A DNA stretch of 64,000 bases from Escherichia phage vB_Eco_slurp01: the sequence record LT603033; one strand, written 5' to 3'. The position numbers and the translations under genes were made by a program. The notes beneath the pieces are model-generated. The model ran no database searches. It was not told where the DNA came from and saw nothing but the letters and a program-made list of their open reading frames with translations. Of the stretch, positions 47,099 to 59,871 are shown in pieces; the first letter of the stretch is position 1; each line of letters begins with the position of its first letter.

Positions 47099-47365
47099 AT
47101 GAATATTAAGTATTTTGCGACGCGTGAACAAGCTCGGATCGCCGCACGCCAGGACGGGGCAACGTTTAAAGATATGGGCGTACAATCGGAACGTGGTAAA
47201 CGTTGGGCCATTGTAAAGCGTAGTACCGCCAGATCATTACAGTACTGGTTAGCGGCCTTAAAAAGACCCGATAGTGTATCGCGACGAGTGGTAGAAATAA
47301 AGCTCGACCGAAAGGGCAACCGCGTGACCGTGTACCGTACTAAAAAGATTGCAGTACTTGAATAA
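47099..47365 (+). CDS. hypothetical protein (paralog of 58556..58951)
   Basis: Shares FYATRE.AR..AR.DGA.FKDMG...RW and RKGNRVTVY motifs with 58556 ORF. Confidence 0.65.
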   Translation: MNIKYFATREQARIAARQDGATFKDMGVQSERGKRWAIVKRSTARSLQYWLAALKRPDSVSRRVVEIKLDRKGNRVTVYRTKKIAVLE

Positions 47366-47372
47366 AAAGTAC

Positions 47373-47400
47373 TTGCAAACTATGTTTAAAGGCGTATAAT
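47373..47400 (+). promoter_or_regulatory. sigma70-like early promoter
   Basis: TTGCAA + 16 bp + TATAAT; hairpin GCGGGAA-CTC-TTCCCGC downstream. Confidence 0.6.
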
Positions 47401-47452
47401 GTTTTACATCGAGAGCGGGAACTCTTCCCGCCTATAACCTGGAGTAATAAAA

Positions 47453-47683
47453 ATGACTAATATGTATATGACTGAAGTTAAAACCGTAAAAGATACTACC
47501 ACGAATAAAACTACTTACTTACAGCGGATCTGTGGTGTATGGCAACGTATCAGCAAATCAAAGTACTTTAAATTAACATCATATGCAAACCGTTCGGATT
47601 CATTCAGTACTGAAATAAAAGGTAATAAAGTACACCAATACGGCACTTATTATTATTATAGCCTGGACGCGATTGCAGTATAA
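47453..47683 (+). CDS. hypothetical protein
   Basis: RBS GGAG; 76 aa. Confidence 0.6.
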   Translation: MTNMYMTEVKTVKDTTTNKTTYLQRICGVWQRISKSKYFKLTSYANRSDSFSTEIKGNKVHQYGTYYYYSLDAIAV

Positions 47684-47930
47684 GCAGTTTACAAATCTTT
47701 ACAATTGCCGGTATTGACTTATTTTGTCAGTACTGGCATAATGTATTCATTGGCAGATAAGCCGTAGCCCATAGGGTGCGGGAGTGTATCTATAGAAAAA
47801 GTAGTTTATTACAGTTACAATTGTGCACCCGGTGGGTTAGCTGTTGTCATGGGGTATATTATGCCAGTACTGGATAGTGCTGTCAATACCTTTTTACTAT
47901 TCAGTACTGAAAACTATTTTTAAAAAGTAC

Positions 47931-47958
47931 TTGCAAACTATGTTTAAAGGCGTATAAT
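47931..47958 (+). promoter_or_regulatory. sigma70-like promoter driving conserved leader element
   Basis: TTGCAA + 16 bp + TATAAT preceded by AT-rich AAAACTATTTTTAAAAAGTAC. Confidence 0.55.
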
Positions 47959-47966
47959 GTTTTACA

Positions 47967-48046
47967 TCAGGACGGGGAACGAAATAAGTAACTCCCCATT
48001 AAGTAGCCCAGGAGTAAGGCACACGAAAAACTCCCCTGATAAAATA
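47967..48046 (+). ncRNA. conserved roughly 80-nt structured element (candidate small RNA/leader), copy 1
   Basis: Near-identical copy at 57363..57440, diverged copy at about 50276..50345; sits between two tandem promoters; internal complementarity. Confidence 0.35.
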
Positions 48047-48048
48047 GT

Positions 48049-48076
48049 TTGAAAATTGTTTTTAAAAGCGTATAAT
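48049..48076 (+). promoter_or_regulatory. second tandem promoter
   Basis: TTGAAA + 16 bp + TATAAT. Confidence 0.5.
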
Positions 48077-48108
48077 ACTTACATCAACTACTGAATGAGG
48101 GTTACAAA

Positions 48109-48720
48109 ATGAAAACTATCACTACTACTACTTTCGTTATGGATTTTTCTGAATTGAACGCAGAACAAAAAACGTCAGCTATCGAACTGGTTCGGGAACG
48201 TGAAAAAAACTCAAACGACAATTATTTTTCTGAAAGTGAAATTGAATACTATAAAGAAACAGTACTACCGGAATATGGCATTAATGACGCTGAAATACAA
48301 TTCAGTGGTTTTTGGTCCCAGGGTGACGGTGCATCAATCAGTACTGACCACGTTGACGCAGTGAAGTTTTTACGCAAGGTAAGAGCATTAACTAAGTATC
48401 GCTCAATCCGTCACCTGCTGAATGAAGATGATTTGGCGATGAGTGTAAAGCGTTCTCACTCTCACTACTCGCATGAGAACACTGTAAGCGGGTACATTGA
48501 ATCGGCTTACACTGATTTAACCGCAAAACAAGAAACGTTAGTTAATGAGCTTGAGGAACTACTCACTGAAACTATTCGTGAATTGTCACGCAAGTTGTAC
48601 CGTGATTTAGAGAATGCATATGAGGATCAATTCACTACTGAAAACATCGTAGCACTGATTGAGGGTAACGAGTATCAATTCAATGTTATTGATGGCGTAG
48701 TAGAATCAATCGAATATTAA
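48109..48720 (+). CDS. hypothetical protein (203 aa)
   Basis: RBS GAGGG; long clean ORF. Confidence 0.65.
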   Translation: MKTITTTTFVMDFSELNAEQKTSAIELVREREKNSNDNYFSESEIEYYKETVLPEYGINDAEIQFSGFWSQGDGASISTDHVDAVKFLRKVRALTKYRSIRHLLNEDDLAMSVKRSHSHYSHENTVSGYIESAYTDLTAKQETLVNELEELLTETIRELSRKLYRDLENAYEDQFTTENIVALIEGNEYQFNVIDGVVESIEY

Positions 48721-48732
48721 TTCAAAAAGTAC

Positions 48733-48760
48733 TGGACACTAAGCAATAAAGGCGTATAAT
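48733..48760 (+). promoter_or_regulatory. sigma70-like promoter
   Basis: TGGACA + 16 bp + TATAAT; hairpin GCGGGAA-TAG-TTCCCGC. Confidence 0.5.
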
Positions 48761-48812
48761 ACTTTATATCGAGAGCGGGAATAGTTCCCGCTACTAATGA
48801 GGAATACTACAA

Positions 48813-48977
48813 ATGAATACTTTTACCTTCGCTCAATTGAACGCCCTGGATGTATTGTCTGATGCTTTGCGGGATGCAACTGAAAGCGGTTTATTTGACA
48901 ATGTTGACATTCACCCTGATGTAATTAATAATTTTTGTGATGCTATCGCAGAAGTACTGGAAGATCTAAAAAAATAA
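48813..48977 (+). CDS. small acidic protein (54 aa)
   Basis: RBS GAGGAA; complete promoter-hairpin-RBS module upstream. Confidence 0.5.
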   Translation: MNTFTFAQLNALDVLSDALRDATESGLFDNVDIHPDVINNFCDAIAEVLEDLKK

Positions 48978-48987
48978 TAGAAAGTAC

Positions 48988-49015
48988 TTGCAATTAGTTT
49001 TTAGTACTGTATAAT
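48988..49015 (+). promoter_or_regulatory. sigma70-like promoter
   Basis: TTGCAA + 16 bp (TAGTACTG) + TATAAT; hairpin GGGGAGAA-ATGG-TTCTCCC. Confidence 0.6.
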
Positions 49016-49065
49016 AGTTTACATAGAGGGGAGAAATGGTTCTCCCTGGTAATGAGGAAAATAAA

Positions 49066-49287
49066 ATGGCTAATATCACTACTCTTTCTCAACTGGAAGC
49101 ACTGGTTAAATCTATGCGGGAACATGCAGACAATATCGGCGTAAAAGATCCAGCCGTTTGCTTCTGCGACGAAATGAATGATGATACACTGGTAATAGCA
49201 GAAGTACAAGATATTTCTAACTATTCATCGCGTTACACTGGCGGCGTAGCAAATAAAGGTGACTTCTGTTTATACCTTACCAAATAA
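49066..49287 (+). CDS. hypothetical protein
   Basis: RBS GAGGAA; 73 aa. Confidence 0.6.
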   Translation: MANITTLSQLEALVKSMREHADNIGVKDPAVCFCDEMNDDTLVIAEVQDISNYSSRYTGGVANKGDFCLYLTK

Positions 49288-49291
49288 CAAC

Positions 49292-49322
49292 GCGGGGAGA
49301 TAATAACTCCCCGTTACTTTTT
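49292..49322 (+). terminator. intrinsic terminator
   Basis: CGGGGAG-ATAATAAC-TCCCCG followed by TTACTTTTT. Confidence 0.6.
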
Positions 49323-49529
49323 CAGTACTGAATCATTTAATAGACGGATCTCGGCACCCTGTGGGTTAGTGACTGTATCGTCTTTATGTAGTAATTATGC
49401 CAGTACTGGATGCACTTGTCAACAACTATTTTTCAAATACTTTTTATTAAAATACTTGCTAATAGTTTTTAAACGCGTATAATGTTTTGCATAGGGGAGC
49501 GGTTCCCCTGGTAACTAAGGAATAAGAAA

Positions 49530-49766
49530 ATGCTTGAACAAATCAAATCAACGTCTGCTAATGTAACGGGAACGGTATCACACTTTATTGGTGATGAATC
49601 GCGGGGCGTTCCCTATTGTGCTGTACATGTAAACACTGAGGGTAACTACTGGTTTACGGTTTACGGATCATATTCATTTGGACGGCCAGGGCATCAAAAA
49701 ATTCTGGATAAAGTACAACCAACGGGTAAAAATATCACTGCCGAAATGTTTTATAAAAAATCATAA
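49530..49766 (+). CDS. hypothetical protein
   Basis: RBS AAGGAA; 78 aa. Confidence 0.6.
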   Translation: MLEQIKSTSANVTGTVSHFIGDESRGVPYCAVHVNTEGNYWFTVYGSYSFGRPGHQKILDKVQPTGKNITAEMFYKKS

Positions 49767-49850
49767 AGTACTTGATAATAGTTTTTAGTACTGTACAATA
49801 TTTTACATCGCACGGGGGAGCGGTTCCCCCTGGTAACTAAGGATAATCAA

Positions 49851-50150
49851 ATGAAAATTGCAATCATCGCCCTGGCTTTATCTGTTTCCTCTTTCGCTGT
49901 TAACGCGTCGTTAGATGTACCTAGTGAAAAATTCATTCAGTGTACTGTTGCGATGACAGATGAAAGTACTGGCGAGATTGTTTTAAAGGATTTAGAGATC
50001 CAGTCAGAAGCATTTAAAAGCGGCCCGTTCCATGAAGAAGACGAAAAAGGTAGCACGACAATTTATTACGATGTAAGTACTAAGCGTGGATCGGTCACGG
50101 TTATGGATACTGAGAAAGTAACGCACACCGGAGTAATTAACTGTTTATAA
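49851..50150 (+). CDS. secreted protein (signal peptide)
   Basis: RBS AAGGA; MKIAIIALALSVSSFAVNAS signal. Confidence 0.65.
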   Translation: MKIAIIALALSVSSFAVNASLDVPSEKFIQCTVAMTDESTGEIVLKDLEIQSEAFKSGPFHEEDEKGSTTIYYDVSTKRGSVTVMDTEKVTHTGVINCL

Positions 50151-50167
50151 TATAGTACTGAATCACT

Positions 50168-50195
50168 AGCCCACCTTAAACAGTGGGCTTTTTTG
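50168..50195 (+). terminator. intrinsic terminator
   Basis: AGCCCAC-CTTAAACA-GTGGGCT + TTTTTG. Confidence 0.7.
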
Positions 50196-50275
50196 TTTTG
50201 TAGTACTGCATACTTTAAAAATAGTTTTAAAAAAGTAGTTGACATTACCACAAAAAGGCGTAGAATGTATTACAT

Positions 50276-50345
50276 CAAGACGGGGAGCACTAAGTAGACC
50301 GCCAGTAAGTCGAACGAAAAACTGGACACGTCGATAAAACTTTGA
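50276..50345 (+). ncRNA. conserved structured element (diverged copy 3)
   Basis: AAGACGGGGAGC...CGAACGAAAAACTGG...GATAAAAC shares skeleton with 47967 and 57363 copies. Confidence 0.25.
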
Positions 50346-50389
50346 TACACTAATAAACGTAAACTAAACTTTAATTGAGGATTTATAAA

Positions 50390-50872
50390 ATGGCTAATGT
50401 AAAATCATTCCTGAAAGCACTGATTTCAAACGATACTGTTATTGCTGCTGAATTGCTGGCTGAACTGGATAACGATACAATGAAAGCGGTACGCAACAAT
50501 TTTAACATTGCGTACAGTGAAGCTAAAGAACTGCAAGCCAAAAAGGTAGCAGAACTGGAAGAACAGAAAAAAGCCCGTGAAGCAGAACTACAAGCAACAA
50601 TTGAAAGTATTCAGGCGGCAGTGTCTGGATTGGATCTGGAAGTGGTTGTAGAAATGGCACATAAAGCCCTGGCGGTTAAGTACGGTGAAGATAAGCCGGA
50701 ATCTAAACCTAAAAAATGGATTCAAGAACGTGTTACTGTAGTACTTGATAACGGTGAAGAACATTTGATTCCTGTACGCGGTAACTGCATTGCGGTAGTA
50801 CTGGACGCTATCAAAGAAAGCGGTATGACTCGCGAGGAATGGATCGAAGCTCATCGCAAAGTTGAAGCATAA
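50390..50872 (+). CDS. hypothetical protein (coiled-coil-rich)
   Basis: RBS GAGGA; E/K/A-rich heptad-like central region. Confidence 0.6.
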   Translation: MANVKSFLKALISNDTVIAAELLAELDNDTMKAVRNNFNIAYSEAKELQAKKVAELEEQKKAREAELQATIESIQAAVSGLDLEVVVEMAHKALAVKYGEDKPESKPKKWIQERVTVVLDNGEEHLIPVRGNCIAVVLDAIKESGMTREEWIEAHRKVEA

Positions 50873-50893
50873 CAATTAAAGTACTGAATCAAT

Positions 50894-50920
50894 AGCCCAC
50901 CTTAAACAGTGGGCTTTTTT
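50894..50920 (+). terminator. intrinsic terminator (second copy of 50168 element)
   Basis: AGCCCACCTTAAACAGTGGGCT + TTTTTTG. Confidence 0.7.
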
Positions 50921-51156
50921 GTGTCTATAGTATTCCAGTCCACTAGCACCGCCTAGAATCGATTCTAACGCATTAAACTGATTATCTGATACATCGCCCT
51001 AGCTGGTGGCGTTAAGGTCGTTAGAAAGCGATTGAGAGTGTTTAAAGTATTTTGCAAAAAGTAATAAAAAGTACTTGCATGATTAAGAGATTAGCGTATA
51101 ATGTTTTACATCGAAAGGGGAAACGGTTCTCCTTCCAAATCAAAGGAATCAAAACA

Positions 51157-51384
51157 ATGGCTATTATCATTACTCGCGTATCTGGTACTACTGGCAATTC
51201 TTCTACTGTTGCAGTCATTACTAACAAGGCAGGTGCGGAATTGCAAAATGCAATGAATACCTGGGCCGTTAATGAGTTCGGTCAGTGGGCAAGTGTAGCA
51301 TACATTGAAACCTATCAAGTGCCGACCATTAGTTTAACGGATCTTGGTGTGGAACGTATCCTTTGCTTGGATGAATTAAATTAA
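51157..51384 (+). CDS. hypothetical protein
   Basis: RBS AAGGAA; 75 aa. Confidence 0.6.
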   Translation: MAIIITRVSGTTGNSSTVAVITNKAGAELQNAMNTWAVNEFGQWASVAYIETYQVPTISLTDLGVERILCLDELN

Positions 51385-51469
51385 AAAAGTACTTGCAAAG
51401 TAAATCGAATAAAGTATAATACATTACATCAAGGGGAGAAATGATTCTCCCCACTACAAGGAAACTAAT

Positions 51470-51613
51470 ATGAAAACTTGTCAATGTGGTAAAAAATCTA
51501 TTACTGGTTTAAAGCGGGGCGTTGCTCTTTGCCAGTACCATTATAATTTACAAGTATGGGGTAAAGAATGGGCCGACCAGGTGGAAGCAATTAAGAAAGC
51601 AAAAAGTAAGTAA
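51470..51613 (+). CDS. small Cys-containing protein (47 aa), possible zinc ribbon
   Basis: RBS AAGGAA; CQCG...CQYH motif. Confidence 0.45.
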   Translation: MKTCQCGKKSITGLKRGVALCQYHYNLQVWGKEWADQVEAIKKAKSK

Positions 51614-51702
51614 AAATATTATCACAGTACTATTGACATAGTTTGATAGTACTGGCATAATAGATTTTATCAAGACAACATATTAATTTAAGGAATACTA
51701 AA

Positions 51703-52026
51703 ATGGCTAAAACTATCATTAACACCGTTTCCCTGGCTGCAATCCGTGCAATCAATGTTGACGGTAAACGTTGGACTGATTCATATGGCAATACTTATCA
51801 TTCTTGTCATGTAAGCGTCGAACTGGATAACGGTTTGAATGTTCTGGCGGTTGAATCATTTACTTATGGCTATGAAGATGCATATCAACAAACGGCGTTA
51901 GATCTATTAAAGGAATCAGTAGACGGGCTTAATACTGATGAAACCTCCCTTACTCGTTTGTGCAATGATCTTAATATCCCGTTGCATTGTACTGTACAGA
52001 ATGTTAAACGCAAAAAAGATCTTTAA
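51703..52026 (+). CDS. hypothetical protein (paralog of 58137..58460)
   Basis: Shared motif (K/N)RWTDS(Y/H)GNTYHSC(H/Y)VS...FTYGY...VKRKKD. Confidence 0.65.
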   Translation: MAKTIINTVSLAAIRAINVDGKRWTDSYGNTYHSCHVSVELDNGLNVLAVESFTYGYEDAYQQTALDLLKESVDGLNTDETSLTRLCNDLNIPLHCTVQNVKRKKDL

Positions 52027-52106
52027 TTAGCTTTACTTTATGCAGATACTTTGATATAGTGTCTGCATAGGGGAAAGAAATTAAATTAACTTAAGAGGAT
52101 CGTATA

Positions 52107-52376
52107 ATGAAAAATATCAGTACTTTAATCGATGCAGGTACACATGTTCGGCGGTCTATGGTTGCAACCAGTACTACAAAACAAGTAGCAAGCGGTTATC
52201 TTGTATTTGTGCACGATGGTAAACTCCTGGAACGTTCAATCAATTTTGATGTTAAAAACAATTGCCGTTTTATTATCTTTAAGCGTGAACAATATAAAAT
52301 TGATTTGCCAGCGAAGCCCATTAGCGGGGCGTACAACGTGCAATCATTGTTTGAGCGTCAACCATACACCTATTGA
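52107..52376 (+). CDS. hypothetical protein
   Basis: RBS AAGAGGA; 89 aa. Confidence 0.6.
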   Translation: MKNISTLIDAGTHVRRSMVATSTTKQVASGYLVFVHDGKLLERSINFDVKNNCRFIIFKREQYKIDLPAKPISGAYNVQSLFERQPYTY

Positions 52377-52427
52377 TCAAATCATCGTTAGTGGTCGATT
52401 TAGGCCGCTTATATTGGGGATTATACC

Positions 52428-52700
52428 ATGAACGTTAATCAAGTACTAAATGAAGTTGAAAGCATCATTAAACCAATGAAACGTATTGATGCAATGCTAA
52501 CACCGGAAGAATGCCGCCTTTATGAGCGTTACAGCGTCGAACAAGTCCAGGCGATGGCTATGGCTACCCCTGCCGTTAAACAGCCTGAGAATGCGTTACA
52601 GGACGTTACAGGGGATTATATCATTAATCCAGTACTAGGGAAGATTACACCAATCACCGAAGAAGAAAAAGACTACTTAAGCCAGTACTTAAAAGGTTAA
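52428..52700 (+). CDS. hypothetical protein
   Basis: 90 aa. Confidence 0.55.
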   Translation: MNVNQVLNEVESIIKPMKRIDAMLTPEECRLYERYSVEQVQAMAMATPAVKQPENALQDVTGDYIINPVLGKITPITEEEKDYLSQYLKG

Positions 52701-52705
52701 TTAAT

Positions 52706-52915
52706 ATGCTTACTGTACAGGATAAGATCGACATCTTAAAGGTTAATATGTATGTGATTGATGCAGATCCTGAAAAAGTATTTGCATACGATGATTCTAA
52801 TCGTAGTCCTTTTTATTGTAGTCATGTAGTTGGATACGTGCCGTTAGCGTATGTTATCGAAAGAGTGGTTGATTCAGCATACAAACATTTTTTAGAAAAT
52901 AATACTTGCAATTAG
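52706..52915 (+). CDS. hypothetical protein
   Basis: RBS AAAAGG; 69 aa. Confidence 0.55.
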   Translation: MLTVQDKIDILKVNMYVIDADPEKVFAYDDSNRSPFYCSHVVGYVPLAYVIERVVDSAYKHFLENNTCN

Positions 52916-52984
52916 TTTTTAGTACTGTATAATAGTTTACATGAAGTGGAGAAATAGTTCTCCCCACTAATTAAGGAATATGAA

Positions 52985-53131
52985 ATGAAAGCATCAAAAA
53001 AGAGTACTAATAAGAAAGCACGTTCAACTTTAGATGGGGTATTCCCTTTGCGTTTTGTGGATGAAGTGGTTTCCTACCCGCTGGGGCTTACTCCTGAGAT
53101 GGTAGAAAGTTTACGTAAATCTAAAAAATAA
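52985..53131 (+). CDS. small basic protein (48 aa)
   Basis: Promoter, hairpin and RBS AAGGAA upstream. Confidence 0.45.
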   Translation: MKASKKSTNKKARSTLDGVFPLRFVDEVVSYPLGLTPEMVESLRKSKK

Positions 53132-53212
53132 TACTTGCAATTAGTTTTTAGTACTGTATAATAGTTTACATGAAGGGGAGAAATGATTCTCCCCAAGAAC
53201 AGGAGAAATAAA

Positions 53213-53365
53213 ATGAAACAATATAATGCTCGGTTTGATGTTACTATCGGTAACGGTAAAGGTCAATTTTCTTTCAGTACTCGACGCAGTTATACAGAAA
53301 ACTTCCTGCGTAATTGTGCACTGACCGCCGCTCAAATTAAACATTATTTTCAGGCTAAAAAATGA
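53213..53365 (+). CDS. small protein (50 aa)
   Basis: RBS AGGAGAA. Confidence 0.5.
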   Translation: MKQYNARFDVTIGNGKGQFSFSTRRSYTENFLRNCALTAAQIKHYFQAKK

Positions 53366-53451
53366 AATCATTAGCTTATTACAGTTCGGCCCTGGTCGTT
53401 GCATTGATCGCGGCGTTGTTAGTAACCTATCTATTCTTTATGGTGATTTAA
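53362..53451 (+). CDS. tiny membrane peptide (29 aa)
   Basis: ATGA overlap; single hydrophobic helix. Confidence 0.3.
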   Translation: MKSLAYYSSALVVALIAALLVTYLFFMVI

Positions 53452-53589
53452 ATGAATCCTAACGGTATAATTTACAGTACTCCTAAAACGAAAGCAGACA
53501 AGGTAAACGCTAAAAAAGCGAAAGTAAAGGAGTACATCAAGCAAGGCATGACGCGAAAGGCGGCGATTCTAAAAGCTAAAAATAAATGA
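53452..53589 (+). CDS. small basic protein (45 aa)
   Basis: TAAATG junction; followed directly by hairpin/promoter element. Confidence 0.35.
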   Translation: MNPNGIIYSTPKTKADKVNAKKAKVKEYIKQGMTRKAAILKAKNK

Positions 53590-53596
53590 AAAAAGT

Positions 53597-53628
53597 GGTT
53601 GACTTCGGTCAGCCATTTTGCTATTATA
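53597..53628 (+). promoter_or_regulatory. stem-loop/promoter hybrid (PeSL-like)
   Basis: TGGTTGACTTCGGTCAGCCA + TTTTG + TATTAT. Confidence 0.55.
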
Positions 53629-53800
53629 TATTCATTGAGAGATAGCTCACTAGCCCACAGGGTGCAGGAGTGTATCTATTGTATAATGTTTGAGTACTGA
53701 AAACTATTTTTAAAAAAGTACTTGAAAACTATCTCAATTGGCGTATAATGTTTTACATCGCAAGGGGAAACGGTTTCCCCTGGTAATAAGGAAACGAATC

Positions 53801-54142
53801 ATGACTATCTCAATTGCTCAATCTAACTTTGAAAATGAAATCATCGCCCAGGTACTGCGTTTAAATGATGGTCGGGCCGAAATTAATTACGGTTTCAATT
53901 CAGGCGGTTGTGAAAACTATCAGTACTTTGTAACGGCTGATGGCGGTGTCCTGGGCATCAATACAGTTATTGTAAACATCCAAAAAATTAATTTCAATGA
54001 TCCAGACGATAGCCAGTTTTACATCACTGGCGTAGACGTGAACTATGAGGATGACTCACTAACTGATGATTACACTGGTGAGCGGTTAGAAAGTGCTTAT
54101 GGTGAAGATGATTATCAGTCAGTACCGGAAGATTTCGAATAA
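53801..54142 (+). CDS. hypothetical protein
   Basis: RBS AAGGAA; 113 aa. Confidence 0.6.
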   Translation: MTISIAQSNFENEIIAQVLRLNDGRAEINYGFNSGGCENYQYFVTADGGVLGINTVIVNIQKINFNDPDDSQFYITGVDVNYEDDSLTDDYTGERLESAYGEDDYQSVPEDFE

Positions 54143-54234
54143 TATAAAAAATAGTTTGACAATAGATTATAGTACTGTATAATAGTTTACATCAAGGGGA
54201 GAATAGTTCTCCCCACTAACAGAGAAAAAACAAA

Positions 54235-54447
54235 ATGGCTAATATCCGCACTGTACTGAAAAATGCAAAACAAGTTTTATTTTCTGATCATGATACTTTC
54301 AACAAGGATATTACTGGCGTTCGGAATATCAAAGATGTAAAAAGTGTTATGGGTATCTATTGCAATATGAAACGTGTTGGAACGTTCGGCGACAAAGTAC
54401 TATACCAGGCAGGGGATTACAATTTTACACTGACTATCATTAACTAA
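54235..54447 (+). CDS. hypothetical protein
   Basis: Promoter + GGGGAGAA-TAG-TTCTCCCC hairpin upstream; 70 aa. Confidence 0.55.
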   Translation: MANIRTVLKNAKQVLFSDHDTFNKDITGVRNIKDVKSVMGIYCNMKRVGTFGDKVLYQAGDYNFTLTIIN

Positions 54448-54530
54448 AAATATTATCACAGTACTATTGACATAGTTTGATAGTACTGACATAATAAGTT
54501 TTATCAACTACACTACTAAGGAATTAAAAA

Positions 54531-54710
54531 ATGGCTATCATCGCAAAAACTGAAATCATCGGCCTGGATTCTATCATCATGACGTTTGAAGATCAAAAAG
54601 GTATGTATGTGGTTTCCTATGGTGATTATGTTCGGGAGTATGAAACGGTAGACGAAGCCTTTGAAAGTTACATTCGCCAGGTGAATAAAGCATACGACGA
54701 CTACCGCTAA
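54531..54710 (+). CDS. small protein (59 aa)
   Basis: RBS AAGGAA; promoter TTGACA...CATAAT upstream. Confidence 0.5.
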   Translation: MAIIAKTEIIGLDSIIMTFEDQKGMYVVSYGDYVREYETVDEAFESYIRQVNKAYDDYR

Positions 54711-54809
54711 AATATATTACCAGTACTATTAAAGATATTGACAACGTTTGATAGTACTGTATAATAAGTTTTATCAACAGTAGTTAACTTAACCTAAGAG
54801 AGAAACAAA

Positions 54810-54953
54810 ATGATCGCACTGGATTCATTCATCGACGCAGTACTGGCAAAAACTGGCGAGGATCTGACCGCAGAACAATACGCAATGATCGAGCAATGCC
54901 AGCAAGACGGTAAATCGGTGAAAGATACTGTTAAGATTATCCGCAAGATGTAA
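54810..54953 (+). CDS. small protein (47 aa)
   Basis: RBS AAGAGAGA; followed by terminator hairpin. Confidence 0.45.
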   Translation: MIALDSFIDAVLAKTGEDLTAEQYAMIEQCQQDGKSVKDTVKIIRKM

Positions 54954-54959
54954 GATTAT

Positions 54960-54990
54960 AGCCCACTGGTTAACGCTGGTGGGCTTTAAT
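54960..54990 (+). terminator. intrinsic terminator-like hairpin
   Basis: AGCCCAC-TGGTTAACGC-TGGTGGGCT + TTAATT. Confidence 0.5.
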
Positions 54991-55058
54991 TCATTACCCT
55001 ATACAATGCCAGTACTAAACCGTTTATCTCCTTAGAATGCGTTACAGGACGTTTGACA

Positions 55059-55256
55059 ATGATTAGCATGAAATCAGTACAAAAACAAATAGAAACATTA
55101 TCAAAAATTAAACGTAAACAGTACTCGTTAGAATATACAATCAATGGTAACTATCATCTAATGAAAGAGAATAATTTCATTGTCATTGATGAATCATTGC
55201 AAATCATTAGTATAGTACTGAAAGCATTAATCAATGACAGAAAAAAATTAAAATAA
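55059..55256 (+). CDS. hypothetical protein
   Basis: ATG at 55059/55068; weak RBS; about 65 aa. Confidence 0.45.
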   Translation: MISMKSVQKQIETLSKIKRKQYSLEYTINGNYHLMKENNFIVIDESLQIISIVLKALINDRKKLK

Positions 55257-55587
55257 TATATTGACAATATCCTCCAGTACTGGCATAATACTTACATCAA
55301 GACGAGAACGTCACTAACCCATAGGGTGCACAAATGTAACTGTATAATATTGATCAAAAAATGATCTGATCAATACTTGATCAATTTGCGTAAAGTAGTA
55401 TAATTCTATGCAGTTGGTTAGACGAAAGGTTATGATTAGTAGTGCAAGTGTATAAAAATTTTCATGGTGTATCGTTTCGCACATATGGGGATGAATATGT
55501 GGTATCATGTGGATTGGAAAAAGTAAGAACAAGTAATATTATTGTCGCATTACAGTACTATAGTATTTTTATAATGAGGTTAAAATA
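55257..55587. promoter_or_regulatory. 330-bp non-coding control region with tandem promoters and TTGATCAA/GATC cluster
   Basis: TTGACA...CATAAT; conserved AACCCATAGGGTGCA motif; TATAAT then TTGATCAA x3 (4 GATC in about 35 bp). Confidence 0.5.
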
Positions 55588-55845
55588 ATGGCTGTAGGAT
55601 TCGCGAAAGATGGGGCCGAACAAGACGAGATTAACGCAGTGATTCAGGCCGCCGTTAACCACGCTAGAAAGCAAATTAACGCACAAATAGAATCACTGAT
55701 ACATTGCCTCGACTGCGGCGATATAATCCCTGAGAAACGACGCCAGGCCGTTAAGGGGTGTAAGTACTGCATAACTTGCCAGGAGGATCATGATAGTACT
55801 TTTAAACGTCCCCCGCGTAATTGTTGGCATAGATCTATGAGATAA
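55588..55845 (+). CDS. DksA/TraR-family C4 zinc-finger protein
   Basis: C-x2-C-G-x-x-I-P-E-x-R-R...C-x2-C pattern (CLDCGDIIPEKRRQAVKGCKYCITC); RBS GAGG. Confidence 0.6.
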   Translation: MAVGFAKDGAEQDEINAVIQAAVNHARKQINAQIESLIHCLDCGDIIPEKRRQAVKGCKYCITCQEDHDSTFKRPPRNCWHRSMR

Positions 55846-55920
55846 AAAGTATTGACAGTACTATCCAGTAGTGTTATAGTACTTACATCAAGGGGAAACA
55901 TCTTCCCCTACTAAGAGGAA

Positions 55921-56115
55921 ATGAAAATGGAAAACTTATCAAGTATTTTAGTACAAGATGATTTCGGTAATCCTGGAAGTGCTATCATTGTTCGGGGTAA
56001 TAAAGCAACATTTGTTATTGCTGGTGGACCTGTACAGCGTAGCATTAAAAATAATGCTGTTACCATTAATAATGTACGCTATCGCTTAGATAAAGAATTG
56101 ATTCATAAACTGTAA
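55921..56115 (+). CDS. hypothetical protein
   Basis: RBS AAGAGGAA; 64 aa. Confidence 0.6.
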   Translation: MKMENLSSILVQDDFGNPGSAIIVRGNKATFVIAGGPVQRSIKNNAVTINNVRYRLDKELIHKL

Positions 56116-56142
56116 TATTAATTTAATAGAGGATAACAATAA

Positions 56143-56466
56143 ATGTACATTCATACTACTATCACAAAGGAAGTCCGTTGCCAGTTCGAAAGTATTCCGG
56201 GCGTATGTTTCATCACTGGTACGTTTTCCCCTGGTGATCGTGATAATCCAGTACTGTTACAATTACGCCATCCATCATGGGATAAAGCATTTGATCTACC
56301 GTTGAATGAATTCGCAACTACTGCTGAAAAGTACATTAAAAATATTCGCGAGAATGATCGACTATTCATTAATGCTTTTAGTGATTCCGCGTTAAGCGAG
56401 ATCCACGGCGTATTGGTTGCAATCATGGAATCAATGGAGAAAACTAAATTCAAACAAGGTGAATAA
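56143..56466 (+). CDS. hypothetical protein
   Basis: RBS AGAGGA; 107 aa. Confidence 0.65.
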   Translation: MYIHTTITKEVRCQFESIPGVCFITGTFSPGDRDNPVLLQLRHPSWDKAFDLPLNEFATTAEKYIKNIRENDRLFINAFSDSALSEIHGVLVAIMESMEKTKFKQGE

Positions 56467-56549
56467 AAACTATTGACAAGATAATCTAGTACTGTATAAT
56501 AAGTTACATGAAGGGGAGAAATGATTCTCCCCACTAAGAGGAAAGAAAA

Positions 56550-56762
56550 ATGCAAGGTCAACTAATCGTTCGTAAATGGTCTGATACTAACGAAAAACCG
56601 TGGGATGTACAATACATCGGACCGGATGGGGTATCACGTTATCAGCCAGGCGTAACGCATAGTACTGAGCAATATGCCGCCGCTCACCGCGAACGCCTGT
56701 TAGAATCCATGAAACAGGGATTCTGTGAAAAATTCATTCAAGATCATTGGCTGAAAGATTAA
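56550..56762 (+). CDS. hypothetical protein
   Basis: RBS AAGAGGAA; 70 aa. Confidence 0.6.
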   Translation: MQGQLIVRKWSDTNEKPWDVQYIGPDGVSRYQPGVTHSTEQYAAAHRERLLESMKQGFCEKFIQDHWLKD

Positions 56763-56779
56763 TAGAAGGAGTACAGCTT

Positions 56780-56872
56780 ATGCAAATGAATCCGATGATT
56801 ATTGTTTTAGCTGTACTTATGATCATTCATGCAATAGTAGAAGTATTAACGCAATCAGGAGTAATAAAATGA
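56780..56872 (+). CDS. tiny membrane peptide (30 aa)
   Basis: Strong RBS AAGGAG; hydrophobic. Confidence 0.4.
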   Translation: MQMNPMIIVLAVLMIIHAIVEVLTQSGVIK

Positions 56873-57042
56873 TTCAAGTAGAATTATCAGTACTAAAAGA
56901 TCTGTTTTATCGGATTGGTACTACTGGCGAATATCCGAAGGGTGATAATGCAAAACTTTACGTATCACTCGACTTATGGCAACGCGAACAATTAGCAACG
57001 GCCTGGCGTAAAGGCAAAGCAGATAGCGAGGTGAAAGCATGA
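56869..57042 (+). CDS. small protein (57 aa)
   Basis: ATGA overlap. Confidence 0.45.
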   Translation: MIQVELSVLKDLFYRIGTTGEYPKGDNAKLYVSLDLWQREQLATAWRKGKADSEVKA

Positions 57043-57188
57043 AAGAATTCTTATTTGAAGTAGTGTTTCAAGGTGTCGGTAATAACCAACTGATTCGCTC
57101 AAGTGGTTACAATGTTAACCAGGCATGGAATAACATTAAACAAATGTACCCGAACGCTATCACATATCGCAACCCGAAAGAAGTTTAA
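57039..57188 (+). CDS. small protein (49 aa)
   Basis: ATGA overlap; followed by hairpin/promoter element. Confidence 0.45.
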   Translation: MKEFLFEVVFQGVGNNQLIRSSGYNVNQAWNNIKQMYPNAITYRNPKEV

Positions 57189-57202
57189 AAATAATTGAAA
57201 AA

Positions 57203-57235
57203 GGGATTGACTCCGGTCAGTCCCTTTGCTATTAT
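57203..57235 (+). promoter_or_regulatory. stem-loop/promoter hybrid (variant)
   Basis: GGGATTGAC-TCCG-GTCAGTCCC + TTTGC + TATTAT. Confidence 0.55.
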
Positions 57236-57362
57236 ATACGCATAGAAACAAATCAGCCCACCGGGTGCATAAATGTATCTATTATATGCTGGTGGCTAGT
57301 ACTGAAAACTATTTTTAAAAAGTACTTGCATTGTACTTAGAATCAAGTATAATGTTTTACAT

Positions 57363-57440
57363 CAGGACGGGGAACGAAACAAGTAACCCCGTTAAGTAGT
57401 CCAGGAGTAAGACATAAGAAAACCTCCCCTGATAAAATAG
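57363..57440 (+). ncRNA. conserved roughly 80-nt structured element (copy 2)
   Basis: Near-identical to 47967..48046; between tandem promoters. Confidence 0.35.
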
Positions 57441-57502
57441 TTTGACAATAGAAAGTAAACGAGTATAATACTTACATCAACCACTGATAAGGAAACATAA
57501 AA

Positions 57503-57778
57503 ATGCGGATTCTACTGACAGCTAACGAAATCGAACAAGTACTGACTACTAACCTGGAAGACTGGAAACGTGAAGCAGATATCCAGGCGGTTCAACGGCT
57601 TAACGATGAGTTAACGCCGGATGACTTAAGCAAGATTGTAGATCCTCAATTCTACGAAGATATCCACGACACCGCGTTAAGCGTCGAGGATGTACTAGAT
57701 AAGCACTACATTGATATTGATTTGCAGGTTTACGGTCGTAAAAACTTTATCACTATTCACGACATTTACAATAATTAA
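57503..57778 (+). CDS. hypothetical protein
   Basis: RBS AAGGAAA; 91 aa. Confidence 0.6.
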   Translation: MRILLTANEIEQVLTTNLEDWKREADIQAVQRLNDELTPDDLSKIVDPQFYEDIHDTALSVEDVLDKHYIDIDLQVYGRKNFITIHDIYNN

Positions 57779-57865
57779 GTATTGACAAAGTATCTTAGTA
57801 CTGTATAATAGTTTACATCAAGCGAGGGGAATGGTTCCCCTCCTAACTAAAAGAGAGAAATAAAA

Positions 57866-58048
57866 ATGGCTAAGTGCACTATCTGCAAGAAAGAAATAGT
57901 ATTAGTTCCAAGTGCCCGTGAACGTGCCGCTCGGTTCGGTGGCAAAGCGTCAGACTATACAAAAATGTTTACTACCCATACAGCTTGCCAGGTAGCAAAA
58001 CGTTCACAAGAAAGCGTAGAATTAATGCGTAAACTTTCCAAAAAATAA
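57866..58048 (+). CDS. small Cys-containing protein, possible zinc ribbon
   Basis: CTIC...HTAC pattern; 60 aa. Confidence 0.55.
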   Translation: MAKCTICKKEIVLVPSARERAARFGGKASDYTKMFTTHTACQVAKRSQESVELMRKLSKK

Positions 58049-58136
58049 GTATTGACAAAGTATCTTAGTACTGTATAATAGTTTACATCAAGTGAGGGGA
58101 AACGGTTCCCCTCCTAACAAAGAGAGAGAAATAAAA

Positions 58137-58460
58137 ATGGCTATGATCCTTGCCCAGAAAGTGGAACTGAAAATTGTAACCTCCTTTGACATTAATGTTA
58201 ATCGGTGGACTGATTCACACGGCAATACTTACCACTCTTGCTACGTGTCTGCGTTAATTGGCGACCGCTGGGAAGACCTGGGACACGAAACCTTTACATA
58301 CGGTTACGGTACACAAGGCGAATACACGGGCTTGGAGATCATTAAAGAAACCGTTATAGGTTTCAACCCGAAAGAAAAAGTTATTCACCGCATCGAGGAA
58401 GAGATCAACAAAGAAATAACAGTTCGCTACCACGATGTAAAACGTAAGAAAGACATGTAA
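58137..58460 (+). CDS. hypothetical protein (paralog of 51703..52026)
   Basis: Shared motifs as listed for 51703 ORF. Confidence 0.65.
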   Translation: MAMILAQKVELKIVTSFDINVNRWTDSHGNTYHSCYVSALIGDRWEDLGHETFTYGYGTQGEYTGLEIIKETVIGFNPKEKVIHRIEEEINKEITVRYHDVKRKKDM

Positions 58461-58555
58461 TAGAATCCATTTAAAGTACTATTTGACATTGCCCAGATAG
58501 TACTTTATAATAGACTCTAACTTGTAGTACTAACTCAACTAATAGGATGTATACC

Positions 58556-58951
58556 ATGATTACTAAATTCTACGCTACCCGTGAAGCTGCCCGTATTGTT
58601 GCACGCGAGGAAGGAGCAGCATTTAAAGACATGGGCAAAGATGCACCGAAAGGTCAACGCTGGGCCGTACAGTTCAAAGAAATCTCTGATATCGTGAATT
58701 CACCGGAGCCAGTACTAACAGCAGCAGAACTAAAACGAGCGGATTTACTGGCGGCAGTACTTAACGCACAAGATGAATTTATCGCTGATTCTGATATCAA
58801 AGTACAGACAAACCATACCGCTTGGACTCACGCGGATCACCTGGCAAACCTTAAGCGTCCAAGTGAACTGGTTCGCAACCAGAAAGAGATCCGACACGAC
58901 CGTAAGGGTAATCGTGTAACAGTATACAGTAAACGCCGCCAGGTTATCTAA
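58556..58951 (+). CDS. hypothetical protein (paralog of 47099..47365)
   Basis: Shared motifs FYATREAARI...FKDMG...RKGNRVTVY. Confidence 0.65.
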   Translation: MITKFYATREAARIVAREEGAAFKDMGKDAPKGQRWAVQFKEISDIVNSPEPVLTAAELKRADLLAAVLNAQDEFIADSDIKVQTNHTAWTHADHLANLKRPSELVRNQKEIRHDRKGNRVTVYSKRRQVI

Positions 58952-58973
58952 TAACTTGCAGTACTAACAACAC

Positions 58974-58998
58974 GGCGGGATCAGTTCCCGCCTTTTTT
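58974..58998 (+). terminator. intrinsic terminator
   Basis: GGCGGGA-TCAG-TTCCCGCC + TTTTTT. Confidence 0.7.
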
Positions 58999-59013
58999 AT
59001 AGGATAAACTAAA

Positions 59014-59268
59014 ATGATTAAGGTACAACTATCTAAAGATAATATCTTGCGGGTACACTATAAAGCACCACAGAGAATCATCACAAAGGCCGTACAGCTT
59101 GCTAATGAGTTTATTAATGGTAACCTATTACCAAGGAAGTTAAGCAACGGAAAACTGCGTGTAATCGATGTAGATACTAACAACAGAATAGTAATTGAGA
59201 ACACAGGAAAGATAAACCTATATGAACACCAACAATATAATAAGAAAATAAAACTAATATCACGTTGA
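59014..59268 (+). CDS. hypothetical protein
   Basis: RBS AGGA; 84 aa. Confidence 0.6.
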   Translation: MIKVQLSKDNILRVHYKAPQRIITKAVQLANEFINGNLLPRKLSNGKLRVIDVDTNNRIVIENTGKINLYEHQQYNKKIKLISR

Positions 59269-59321
59269 CAGTACTCAATTGTTTTAGTATTATGTACACA
59301 TACCAACACGGGAGAAACAAA

Positions 59322-59540: not shown

Positions 59541-59597
59541 TTGACAGTACTCAAATGTTTTAGTACTATATGTACATACCAACACGGGGAAAACAAA

Positions 59598-59840: not shown

Positions 59841-59871
59841 GATAGTTTCATTAACTCAAGGAGAACATGCA

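What the first reader, a model, noticed from the sequence alone, without database searches (positions are those of the whole stretch)
47099..58951. Dispersed paralog pairs in the early region (47099/58556 and 51703/58137)
Protein 47099..47365 is paralogous to 58556..58951, and 51703..52026 to 58137..58460. At 58.1-58.9 kb the two family members are adjacent, whereas their partners are separated by about 4.5 kb. This points to duplication and shuffling of promoter-gene modules within the early region, consistent with the cassette architecture.
Basis: seen in the sequence. Interest (0 to 1): 0.35.

Follow-up and report, generated by a model that had tools for sequence, protein, structure and literature searches.

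The report
Old gene duplicates in jumbo-phage early region
Two pairs of small, function-unknown early genes in the terminal repeat of an E. coli jumbo phage are real, ancient duplicates, and they sit in a region that is rebuilt gene by gene through recombination between repeated promoter sequences, a mechanism already described in T4-like phages, so the finding is sound but fairly ordinary.

Summary
Both paralog pairs are real. BLASTP gives 36% identity, E 3e-20 for 47099/58556 and 38% identity, E 2e-28, gapless, for 51703/58137. The window is an Asteriusvirus (121Q/BF17-like E. coli jumbo phage). All four genes lie inside its ~20-kb direct terminal repeat, a + strand array of about 49 small ORFs driven by at least 36 sigma-70-like promoters, many followed by a GC hairpin.

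The duplications are old: third codon positions are saturated. All four copies are maintained (dN/dS 0.11-0.44) and sit at fixed positions across the core genus.

"Promoter-gene module duplication" holds for family A. Its two upstream regions are reciprocal best matches among the 47 upstream regions compared. It does not hold for family B, whose copies use different promoter classes.

Cassette shuffling is directly visible at the family-B slot 51703:
- SP27 carries a Phapecoctavirus-like allele there, with breakpoints just after the promoter and inside the conserved C-terminal codons.
- BF17 has an extra gene there, flanked by two identical 74-nt promoter copies.

This is the PeSL mechanism known from T4-type phages. 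Protein functions remain unknown. A/B adjacency recurs in Vequintavirinae, and A is followed by a ParE-like gene in Rak2-like phages.

The parts
44519..64000 (+). Direct terminal repeat (DTR) early region. It runs on about 200 nt beyond the window end.
   Evidence: Position 1 of the annotated 21,525-bp DTR of phage vB_Ec-M-J aligns to window 44519, and DTR position 21306 aligns to window 63999. Genomes deposited with both repeats show four copies of family A, the others two. A 20,668-bp DTR was found by PhageTerm in the Asteriusvirus Sharanji (PMC11895373).
47099..47365 (+). Family A, slot 1 copy (88 aa, short form; phrog_8127)
   Evidence: It is conserved at the same position in BF17, vB_Ec-M-J, 121Q and SP27. 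dN/dS against 121Q is 0.15. Its positional ortholog in EJP2 is a 125-aa long form, so the short form arose by an internal deletion of about 40 aa.
47037..47061 (+). Promoter-like site of family A slot 1 (TTGCAC, 13-nt spacer, TATAAT), probably weakened
   Evidence: It aligns with the slot 2 promoter but has a spacer 4 nt shorter. No hairpin follows it.
58556..58951 (+). Family A, slot 2 copy (131 aa, long form; phrog_8127)
   Evidence: dN/dS is 0.19. This is the ancestral slot, because the single family-A gene of RaK2 and of the metagenomic Rak2-like contigs lies in the same context.
58483..58511 (+). Promoter of family A slot 2, a perfect TTGACA-17-TATAAT
   Evidence: One search gives 12 of 12 matches. 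The upstream region is the reciprocal best match to that of 47099.
51703..52026 (+). Family B, slot 1 copy (107 aa; phrog_6246)
   Evidence: It differs from the 121Q ortholog at only 5 nt (dS 0.028, against 0.38-0.50 for the other three genes), and SP27-type genomes carry a different allele here.
51607..51679 (+). Promoter cassette upstream of family B slot 1 (TTGACA-17-CATAAT with TG, no hairpin); a recombination hotspot
   Evidence: The left breakpoint of the SP27 allele replacement is at 51679. BF17 has two identical 74-nt copies of this cassette flanking an extra 213-nt gene, and the window has one. Further copies in the window lie at 54441 and 62090 (family D19).
58137..58460 (+). Family B, slot 2 copy (107 aa; phrog_6246)
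   Evidence: dN/dS is 0.11. The AlphaFold2 model has pLDDT 87.8 and pTM 0.79.
58052..58115 (+). Promoter (perfect TTGACA-16-TATAAT) plus 5' GC hairpin of family B slot 2
   Evidence: The hairpin has dG -14.5 kcal/mol, z -2.8. The first 76 nt of the cassette are 89% identical to the 57765 cassette of the neighbouring gene 57866 (D6), and 57866 is the best upstream match (score 85).
58974..58999 (+). GC hairpin plus T-run downstream of family A slot 2 (terminator-like)
   Evidence: dG -15.8 kcal/mol. It is the same hairpin type as 47412-47433, downstream of family A slot 1.
59014..59268 (+). ParE-like toxin-domain gene directly downstream of family A slot 2
   Evidence: Pfam PF24732, 42.6 bits against a cutoff of 24.4. 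The same adjacency occurs in RaK2 and in metagenomic contigs L010, L011 and L013.

Best explanation
The four genes belong to two families of small early proteins (PHROG 8127, called A here, and PHROG 6246, called B). They lie in the ~20-kb direct terminal repeat of an Asteriusvirus jumbo phage. This repeat is a one-strand array of short genes, most with their own host-type (sigma-70) promoter and many with a 5' GC hairpin.

Shown:
- Each family is present in two old, strongly diverged copies, and all four are kept by purifying selection.
- The region changes between relatives by gain, loss or replacement of single ORFs, with junctions in the repeated promoter cassettes. This matches the PeSL (promoter-early stem-loop) modular shuffling of T4-type phages.

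Inferred:
- Family A was duplicated inside the Asteriusvirus lineage as a promoter+ORF module, from its ancestral place next to a ParE-like gene to a new place near the start of the repeat. The new copy then lost its central helical linker (about 40 aa) and part of its promoter spacer.
- The two family-B lineages split before the genus did, or were acquired separately. Their promoters have since been exchanged independently of the ORFs.
- The proteins are made in the first minutes of infection by host RNA polymerase and act on host targets (takeover or counter-defence). Two diverged copies would then cover two target variants. This functional part is the weakest step.
For: - Paralogy.
- Identity of the phage and the DTR.
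- Promoter array: my pattern search found 36 promoter-like sites on the + strand of 44-64 kb against 4 on the - strand. The separate scan tool on 46-60 kb found 84 sites against 48.2 +/- 8.7 in shuffles, and all seven perfect sites are on the + strand. Hairpins have dG of -12 to -15.8 kcal/mol.
- Age and selection: third-position identity is 27-35%. dN/dS is 0.11-0.19 for three genes and 0.44 for family B slot 1, where only 5 nt differ.
- Family-A module: reciprocal best upstream match and a shared downstream hairpin. In the tree, the slot 1 clade with EJP2 slot 1 is sister to the slot 2 clade, with the RaK2 group outside. EJP2 slot 1 combines a long-type N-terminus and middle with a slot-1-type C-terminus.
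- Cassette recombination: the SP27 allele replacement has sharp breakpoints. The BF17 extra gene is flanked by identical 74-nt promoter copies where the window has one. 121Q has an insertion at the same point, 51677. Of 35 homology-block breakpoints, 66% lie within 60 nt of a -10, against 23% at random; none of 2000 simulations reached that value. At least 10 DTR genes of relatives are absent from the window.
- Cross-genus pool: the SP27 allele is 80-86% (aa) and 82.6% (nt) identical to Phapecoctavirus ESCO5 gp142, and the ESCO5 neighbours are homologs of window genes 46318 and 46771 in a different order.
- PeSL definition: PMC2839356 and PMC4122927.
Against: - No transcription data were available, so promoters, early timing and hairpin function rest on sequence patterns only.
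- Three of the four genes in question lack the 5' hairpin.
- Most hairpins have no T-run, so the terminator role that defines PeSLs is doubtful here.
- The breakpoint test is partly confounded, because promoters lie in intergenic DNA where alignment blocks tend to end anyway, and my chaining of BLAST hits was crude for BF17 and vB_Ec-M-J.
- EJP2 slot 2 family A falls outside the RaK2 group in the tree, which a simple single-duplication history does not predict.
- The trees are neighbour-joining on short proteins without bootstrap support.
- No function could be assigned: Pfam, PADLOC, PDB sequence searches and Foldseek gave nothing significant.
Confidence: 0.7

Rival explanations
1. The copies are xenologs, not in-genome duplicates. 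Each was picked up separately from the pool of early-gene cassettes shared among large coliphages and dropped into a promoter slot.
For: For family B, each window copy has closer relatives elsewhere than its partner. Slot 1 is 51% identical to P0002 and 46% to EJP2. Slot 2 is 42-43% identical to P0049 and P0050. The two copies are only 38% identical to each other. A third, Phapecoctavirus-like allele demonstrably replaced slot 1 in SP27-type genomes. The two promoters are unrelated.
Against: For family A, the two copies together with EJP2 slot 1 are each other's closest relatives, and RaK2-group phages have only one copy. Their promoters and downstream hairpins are homologous. The seven-leaf clade that holds both family-B copies contains only Asteriusvirus sequences and two metagenomic relatives, one of them on a Rak2-like contig, which also fits an old duplication within that lineage.
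Confidence: 0.3
2. A and B form a functional two-gene unit, possibly together with the ParE-like gene. The dispersed partners would then be the remains of a second copy of that unit, pulled apart by later cassette insertions.
For: A/B adjacency occurs in core Asteriusvirus and in EJP2 in the order B-A. It also occurs in Vequintavirinae in the order A-B: Av-05 0031/0032 and PVP-SE1 gp198/gp197. The order of the dispersed copies in the window (A ... B) matches the Vequintavirinae order. A followed by the ParE-like gene is conserved across Rak2-like lineages.
Against: RaK2, phiKp_21 and the fetched parts of contigs L010-L013 have A without an adjacent B. ESCO5 has B with no A within 4 kb. The orders are opposite. 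Eight genes separate the dispersed copies in every core genome. Each gene has its own promoter, and a terminator-like hairpin separates A from the ParE-like gene.
Confidence: 0.2
3. The similarities are due to chance, or come from translating shared promoter or repeat DNA, or from an assembly artefact.
For: Some other window 'paralog' hits do come from translated promoter cassettes, for example the minus-strand ORFs 53141/48994 and 61324/51042.
Against: The E-values are 3e-20 and 2e-28 over the full length of the ORFs. Both families are PHROG families with many members elsewhere. Codon-position identity follows the coding pattern, with position 2 above 1 above 3. dN/dS is below 1. The copies are only about 50% identical in DNA, so they cannot be an assembly duplication.
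Confidence: 0.01

Closest known systems
PeSLs (promoter-early stem-loop cassettes) of T4-type phages RB49/phi1, T4/PST and KVP40/nt-1 (Arbiol et al. 2010, PMC2839356; Comeau et al. 2014, PMC4122927)
   Same: - Strong sigma-70-like promoter with a GGGG...CCCC-type stem-loop between the -10 and the Shine-Dalgarno sequence.
- Many copies in a region packed with small non-essential ORFs of unknown function.
- Close relatives differ by insertion, deletion or replacement of single ORFs, with crossovers between the -10 and the start codon.
- An ORF flanked by two identical cassettes in one genome and absent, with a single cassette, in another.
   Different: - The host phage is a Rak2-like jumbo phage (Asteriusvirus), not a T4-type phage.
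- The array lies in a long terminal repeat.
- About a third of the cassettes, including three of the four studied here, have no hairpin.
- The hairpins mostly lack a T-run, so terminator activity is unproven.
- The cassette sequence differs (AAAGTACTTGCAA / CAGTACTGTATAAT, with the palindrome AGTACT).
- Mini-circles were not tested.
- One crossover used conserved C-terminal codons rather than a second cassette.
Terminal-repeat early regions of Rak2-like jumbo phages (for example vB_PcaM_CBB, PMC5259590) and, by analogy from general knowledge, the pre-early genes in the T5 terminal repeat
   Same: A terminal repeat of about 20-22 kb holding about 50 short ORFs of unknown function. RpoD-like promoters with an AT-rich upstream element. 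Paralogous ORFs are reported in general terms.
   Different: The CBB paper does not describe promoter-hairpin cassettes as recombination sites, nor these two families. No evidence here bears on two-step DNA injection as in T5.
PHROG families phrog_8127 (A) and phrog_6246 (B); Pfam ParE_like PF24732 for the neighbouring gene
   Same: Full-length, highly significant matches.
   Different: Both PHROGs are annotated 'unknown function'. Neither has a Pfam family, and neither has a solved or significantly similar structure.

Membership tests
PeSL-type regulatory/recombination cassette | Strong sigma-70-like early promoter consensus | tested here: met
   My pattern search found 36 + strand sites in 44-64 kb against 4 on the - strand. 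The scan tool on 46-60 kb found seven perfect 12/12 sites, all on the + strand, and 84 sites in total against 48.2 +/- 8.7 in shuffles.
PeSL-type regulatory/recombination cassette | Adjacent conserved GC stem-loop (GGGG...CCCC) between the -10 and the ribosome-binding site | tested here: inconclusive
   Present in roughly two thirds of the cassettes, with dG -12 to -15.8 kcal/mol. Of the four genes studied, only 58137 has it. The 47099, 58556 and 51703 leaders do not fold.
PeSL-type regulatory/recombination cassette | Stem-loop acts as a transcription terminator | not testable with these tools
   Most 5' hairpins lack a T-run. Only a few sites, such as 58974-58999, look like intrinsic terminators. 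This needs transcript mapping.
PeSL-type regulatory/recombination cassette | Indels and replacements between close relatives have their junctions in the cassettes | tested here: met
   The SP27 replacement has its left junction at 51679, just after the -10. The BF17 extra gene sits between two identical 74-nt cassettes. 121Q has an insertion at 51677. 66% of breakpoints lie near a -10, against 23% expected.
PeSL-type regulatory/recombination cassette | Located in hyperplastic regions of a T4-type phage genome | tested here: not met
   The region is hyperplastic: at least 10 genes of relatives are absent here. But the phage is an Asteriusvirus, not a T4-type phage. It is therefore filed as PeSL-like, not as a PeSL.
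PeSL-type regulatory/recombination cassette | Formation of excised mini-circles | not testable with these tools
   Requires inverse PCR on infected cells or virions.
In-genome paralogs (duplicates within the lineage) | The two copies are each other's closest relatives compared with homologs in other lineages | tested here: inconclusive
   Family A meets this. The slot 1 clade plus EJP2 slot 1 is sister to the slot 2 clade, with RaK2 outside. Family B does not. Outside sequences are closer to each copy than the partner is, although both copies fall in one seven-leaf clade of 37. Neither tree has bootstrap support.
Type II toxin-antitoxin pair (family A as antitoxin of the ParE-like gene) | Toxin-family domain in the downstream gene | tested here: met
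   PF24732 ParE_like, 42.6 bits against a cutoff of 24.4.
Type II toxin-antitoxin pair (family A as antitoxin of the ParE-like gene) | Small upstream partner co-transcribed in one operon, with a known antitoxin fold | tested here: not met
   A 62-nt gap holding a hairpin and T-run separates the genes. Family A matches no antitoxin family or fold. The slot 1 copy has no ParE-like neighbour, and none was detected near EJP2 slot 2 at E<=1e-4.

The most novel reading that the evidence does not exclude
Families A and B, with the ParE-like gene next to A, could form a previously unrecognised early-infection module shared by several groups of large enterobacterial phages (Asteriusvirus, Vequintavirinae, and partly Rak2-like and Phapecoctavirus). 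One possibility is a counter-defence or host-takeover pair in which A partners or regulates B or the ParE-like toxin. The diverged second copies, and the allele swapping at the 51703 slot, would then reflect an arms race with variable host targets. The weak RNase H-like topology of B would fit a nucleic-acid-directed activity.
Probability: 0.12. Interest if true: 0.55.

Novelty: new member of a known kind. Interest (0 to 1): 0.3.

Why it matters
The result documents, with base-level junctions, that the promoter-cassette mechanism of gene shuffling described for T4-type phages also operates in the terminal-repeat early region of Rak2-like jumbo coliphages. It also shows single early ORFs being exchanged between unrelated coliphage genera (Asteriusvirus and Phapecoctavirus).

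This helps explain why the roughly 50 early genes of these phages vary so much between isolates used for phage therapy. It marks two widespread families of unknown function as candidates for host-takeover or counter-defence studies. Family B has 562 representatives (one per cluster at 50% identity) in a 1.8-billion-protein library and a confident novel-looking fold.

The paralog pairs themselves are an ordinary feature of such regions.

Tried and rejected
- **Pfam on the four proteins.** Nothing significant, only a 0.11 E-value noise hit.
- **PADLOC.** Nothing for A or B.
- **PDB sequence searches, with single sequences and with profiles.** Nothing credible. The 58137 copy gave an 'avidin' hit (E 3.9e-6 to an engineered dual-chain avidin). 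Neither its paralog nor the family profile reproduces it, so I rejected it as spurious.
- **Foldseek against PDB, family B model.** Best E 0.016 and TM 0.3-0.4. The hits all have RNase H-like folds (RNase HI, RuvC, FtsA, Piwi, terminase nuclease). I treat this as a topological hint only.
- **Foldseek against BFVD, family B model.** Only uncharacterised phage proteins: Salva, Av-05.
- **Foldseek against PDB, family A model** (pLDDT 72.5, pTM 0.31). No match.
- **Larger proteins with a C-terminal family-B domain** (206-592 aa). No Pfam domains and no informative names.
- **RaK2 ORF352**, the gene upstream of family A in RaK2. Tested as a possible diverged family-B member and rejected (hhalign probability 0.7%).
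- **Rfam on 44-64 kb.** No family reached threshold.
- **Word-indexed homolog search for family B.** Only 2 clusters. The exhaustive profile search was needed to find more.
- **Literature searches** for these genes or for PeSL-like elements in Rak2-like phages. No description found. The library is limited to open-access papers.
- **A first bootstrap tree script** timed out. The trees reported have no bootstrap support.

Full report
**What the window is**

Megablast of 47000-59000 finds Asteriusvirus genomes. BF17 matches at 95.6% over 84% of the query, and 121Q, PBECO4-type and others follow. The four ORFs named in the finding coincide with annotated hypothetical-protein CDSs of BF17.

Position 1 of the annotated 21,525-bp direct terminal repeat (DTR) of phage vB_Ec-M-J aligns to window 44519, and DTR position 21306 aligns to window 63999. 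Everything from 44.5 kb to the window end is therefore the terminal repeat. A 20.7-kb DTR was also derived from reads for the Asteriusvirus Sharanji (PMC11895373), and a 22.5-kb repeat with 51 ORFs is reported for the Rak2-like phage CBB (PMC5259590).

| Pair | Lengths | Identity | E-value | Note |
|---|---|---|---|---|
| Family A: 47099-47365 / 58556-58951 | 88 / 131 aa | 36% | 3e-20 | about 45 extra central residues in the long copy |
| Family B: 51703-52026 / 58137-58460 | 107 / 107 aa | 38% | 2e-28 | no gaps |

- These are the only protein-level paralog pairs on the + strand of 44-64 kb in an all-against-all search.
- Each pair maps to one PHROG of unknown function: phrog_8127 and phrog_6246.
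- DNA identity is 50-54%. By codon position it is 59/69/35% for A and 53/69/27% for B, which is a coding pattern with saturated synonymous sites.
- Against the 121Q orthologs, dN/dS is 0.15, 0.19 and 0.11 for three genes. It is 0.44 for 51703, where only 5 nt differ. All four are real, maintained genes.

**Architecture of the region**

- My pattern search found 36 sigma-70-like promoter sites on the + strand of 44-64 kb and 4 on the - strand.
- The independent scanner, run on 46-60 kb, found 84 sites against 48.2 +/- 8.7 in shuffles. All seven perfect TTGACA/TATAAT sites are on the + strand.
- The promoters fall into repeat families 50-100 nt long.
- About two thirds are followed, roughly 10 nt after the -10, by a GC hairpin of the GGGGAGAA...TTCTCCCC or GCGGGA...TCCCGC type and then a ribosome-binding site. 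Hairpin dG is -12 to -15.8 kcal/mol.

This is the layout of the PeSL cassettes of T4-type phages: a strong sigma-70-like promoter plus a stem-loop 'generally involving GGGG...CCCC' (PMC2839356 and PMC4122927). Similar promoter-hairpin cassettes occur in RaK2, in a metagenomic Rak2-like contig, in Phapecoctavirus ESCO5 and in PVP-SE1.

**Were promoter and gene duplicated together?**

*Family A: yes.* I compared the 110 nt upstream of 47 genes.
- The two family-A upstream regions are each other's best match (score 33; median 14).
- The homology begins at ATGTAATAGAAT, the last codon and stop of the preceding gene in both places. It runs through AAAGTACTATT(T)G(A)CA...GATAGTACTTTATAATAG.
- Both copies are followed by the same GCGGGA...TCCCGC hairpin type.
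- The slot 2 promoter is a perfect TTGACA-17-TATAAT. The slot 1 promoter has a 13-nt spacer and is probably weakened; this is an inference.

*Family B: no.*
- The 51703 promoter belongs to the hairpin-less class also found at 54441 and 62090.
- The 58137 promoter and leader are closest to those of its neighbour 57866. The first 76 nt of the two cassettes are 89% identical (D6), and 57866 is the best upstream match (score 85).
- The two paralogs' upstream regions rank only 6th and 22nd for each other.

Promoter cassettes are therefore exchanged or homogenised independently of the ORFs.

**History from synteny and trees**

*Family A*
- Both slots are conserved in BF17, vB_Ec-M-J, 121Q and SP27. 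All Asteriusvirus records hold two family-A copies per repeat.
- RaK2, phiKp_21 and the metagenomic Rak2-like contigs hold a single copy in the slot 2 context: a homolog of 57503 upstream and the ParE-like 59014 homolog downstream.
- In the divergent Asteriusvirus EJP2, the slot 1 gene is a 125-aa long form. Its N-terminus and middle resemble the window's slot 2 copy, and its C-terminus (SPDSVSRRVVEIKHDRKGNRVTVY...KIAVL) resembles the window's slot 1 copy. In the tree it groups with the slot 1 clade.
- The simplest reading is that slot 2 is ancestral. A promoter+gene duplication to slot 1 then happened within the Asteriusvirus lineage, and a later internal deletion of about 40 aa produced the 88-aa form.
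- EJP2's slot 2 copy is very divergent (about 45% to the window's slot 2 copy) and falls outside the RaK2 group. The simple history does not explain this.

*Family B*
- The slot 1 type (with EJP2's only copy, at 46%) and the slot 2 type (with metagenomic P0049 and P0050, at 42-43%) each have closer relatives outside the genome than each other.
- The split is therefore older than the genus, or the two were acquired separately.

**Direct evidence for cassette shuffling, at the family-B slot 1**

1. SP27 (and 8 other records at 95% identity or more) carries a 114-aa family-B allele only 31-34% identical to either window copy.
   - The flanks are 93-100% identical to the window up to ...TATCAAGACAAC (window 51679, just after the -10).
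   - Identity resumes exactly at GATGTTAAACGCAAAAAAGATCTTTAA, the codons of the conserved DVKRKKDL C-terminus.
   - This allele is 80-86% (protein) and 82.6% (DNA, ORF only) identical to gp142 of Phapecoctavirus ESCO5.
2. BF17, vB_Ec-M-J and 121Q carry an extra 213-nt gene between 51470 and family B that is absent from the window.
   - In BF17 it is flanked by two identical 74-nt copies of the promoter cassette, including the last codons of the upstream ORF. The window has one copy.
   - This is the configuration given for PeSL-mediated deletion or insertion of RB49 ORF192.
3. The 51703 cassette is nearly identical between the window and 121Q (dS 0.028, against 0.38-0.50 for the other three genes; 97-99% identity against 88-94% to its left), which suggests a recent exchange.
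4. Of 35 homology-block breakpoints between the window and four relatives, 66% lie within 60 nt of a -10, against 23% for random positions. None of 2000 simulations reached that value. This test is partly confounded by the intergenic location of promoters.
5. At least 10 DTR genes of relatives have no homolog in the window. BF17, SP27 and vB_Ec-M-J have a second DUF7249 paralog that the window lacks.
6. In ESCO5, family B lies between homologs of window genes 46318 and 46771, which are adjacent in the window.

**What the proteins are**

*Family B*
- The exhaustive profile search finds 562 cluster representatives at E <= 0.001 among 1.8 billion proteins. Some are C-terminal domains of 200-590-aa proteins with no Pfam domain.
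- The conserved motifs are RW..(S)YGNTYHS, (F)xYGYG..Y..TA and DVxRKKDL at the very C-terminus.
- The AlphaFold2 model is confident (pLDDT 87.8, pTM 0.79), with strand-strand-strand-helix-strand-helix-strand order.
- No significant PDB match was found. The weak top hits are all RNase H-like folds (E >= 0.016, TM 0.3-0.4). BFVD matches are uncharacterised phage proteins.

*Family A*
- It has a conserved N-terminal module of about 40 aa (KFYATRExARIVAREEGxxFKDMG....G.RWAV), a variable helical linker and a basic C-terminal beta-hairpin.
- It has no structural or family match.

*Context clues*
- A is directly followed by a ParE-like toxin-domain gene (PF24732, 42.6 bits) in the window, RaK2 and three metagenomic contigs.
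- A and B are adjacent in Asteriusvirus (order B-A). They are also adjacent, in the order A-B, in the Vequintavirinae phages Av-05 and PVP-SE1.
- RaK2-group phages have A without an adjacent B, and ESCO5 has B without A.

I rate a functional A/B or A/ParE-like link as possible but unproven.

**Verdict**

- The duplications are ancient and positionally stable.
- Only family A shows promoter+gene co-duplication.
- The repeated promoters are mainly the recombination substrate rather than cargo.

The mechanism is a known kind (PeSL-type modular shuffling), here in a new host lineage and genomic setting. The functions remain unknown.

Noticed in passing
window 47690-47810, 53575-53690, 55238-55350, 57183-57290, 60452-60565, 62720-62830 (weaker copy at 45771); also L006 (RaK2) ~5782-5870 and L013 ~3531-3600: A composite intergenic element recurs six to seven times. 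It consists of the hairpin AAAGGGATTGACTCCGGTCAGTCCCTTT (which contains a -35-like TTGACT), a -10-like TATTAT or CATAAT, then ATTCATTGAGAGATAAC and a near-invariant AGCCCAyAGGGTGC...GTGTATCTAT. It is conserved in RaK2 and in a metagenomic Rak2-like contig whose proteins are only 35-60% identical to those of the window. No Rfam family matches. It is a candidate small RNA gene or protein-binding site.
   Followed up: partly
window 59014-59268: This 84-aa ORF carries a ParE-like toxin domain (PF24732, 42.6 bits against a cutoff of 24.4). It lies directly downstream of family A in the window, in RaK2 and in three metagenomic contigs. No recognisable antitoxin is present.
   Followed up: partly
window 23691-39443, minus strand: An array of about 13 tandem paralogous ORFs of roughly 300-430 aa, 25-40% identical to each other. 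In 121Q they are annotated as 'putative DNA condensation protein (RCC1-like)' and in EJP2 as GTPase regulator or BNR repeat proteins.
   Followed up: no
window 39752-44123, plus strand: About 20 tightly packed ORFs of 60-80 aa that fall into several interleaved paralog sub-families, 28-59% identical. They lie just upstream of the terminal repeat.
   Followed up: no
window 44303-44509, 45305-45432, 46051-46209: A 60-bp tandem repeat (3 copies) ends 10 nt before the position that aligns to the annotated genome terminus (44519). There is also an 8-bp periodic repeat (GGATGGCT / AAACGGCT / AGACGGCT) and a 53-bp tandem repeat (3 copies) in the 1.7-kb non-coding start of the terminal repeat. These may be packaging or terminus signals.
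   Followed up: no
window 46771-47010; L001 4570-4809; L004 4675-4914: The DUF7249 gene (PF23907, E 1.8e-10) has a second, 66%-identical paralog in BF17, SP27 and vB_Ec-M-J that the window lacks. At least 10 other small DTR genes of relatives are also absent from the window.
   Followed up: partly
L015 (Phapecoctavirus ESCO5) 3490-4635 versus window 46318-47010: The ESCO5 early region shares cassettes with this terminal repeat, but in a different order. gp143 (homolog of window 46318) is followed by family-B gp142 and then gp141 (DUF7249, homolog of window 46771). ESCO5 also has its own promoter+hairpin cassettes.
   Followed up: partly
window 44-64 kb, promoters: The palindrome AGTACT is built into most promoter cassettes, upstream of the -35 (AAAGTACTTGCAA) and/or just before the -10 (CAGTACTGTATAAT). 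The same is true in RaK2 and in the metagenomic contigs. It may be a binding site for a phage or host factor.
   Followed up: no
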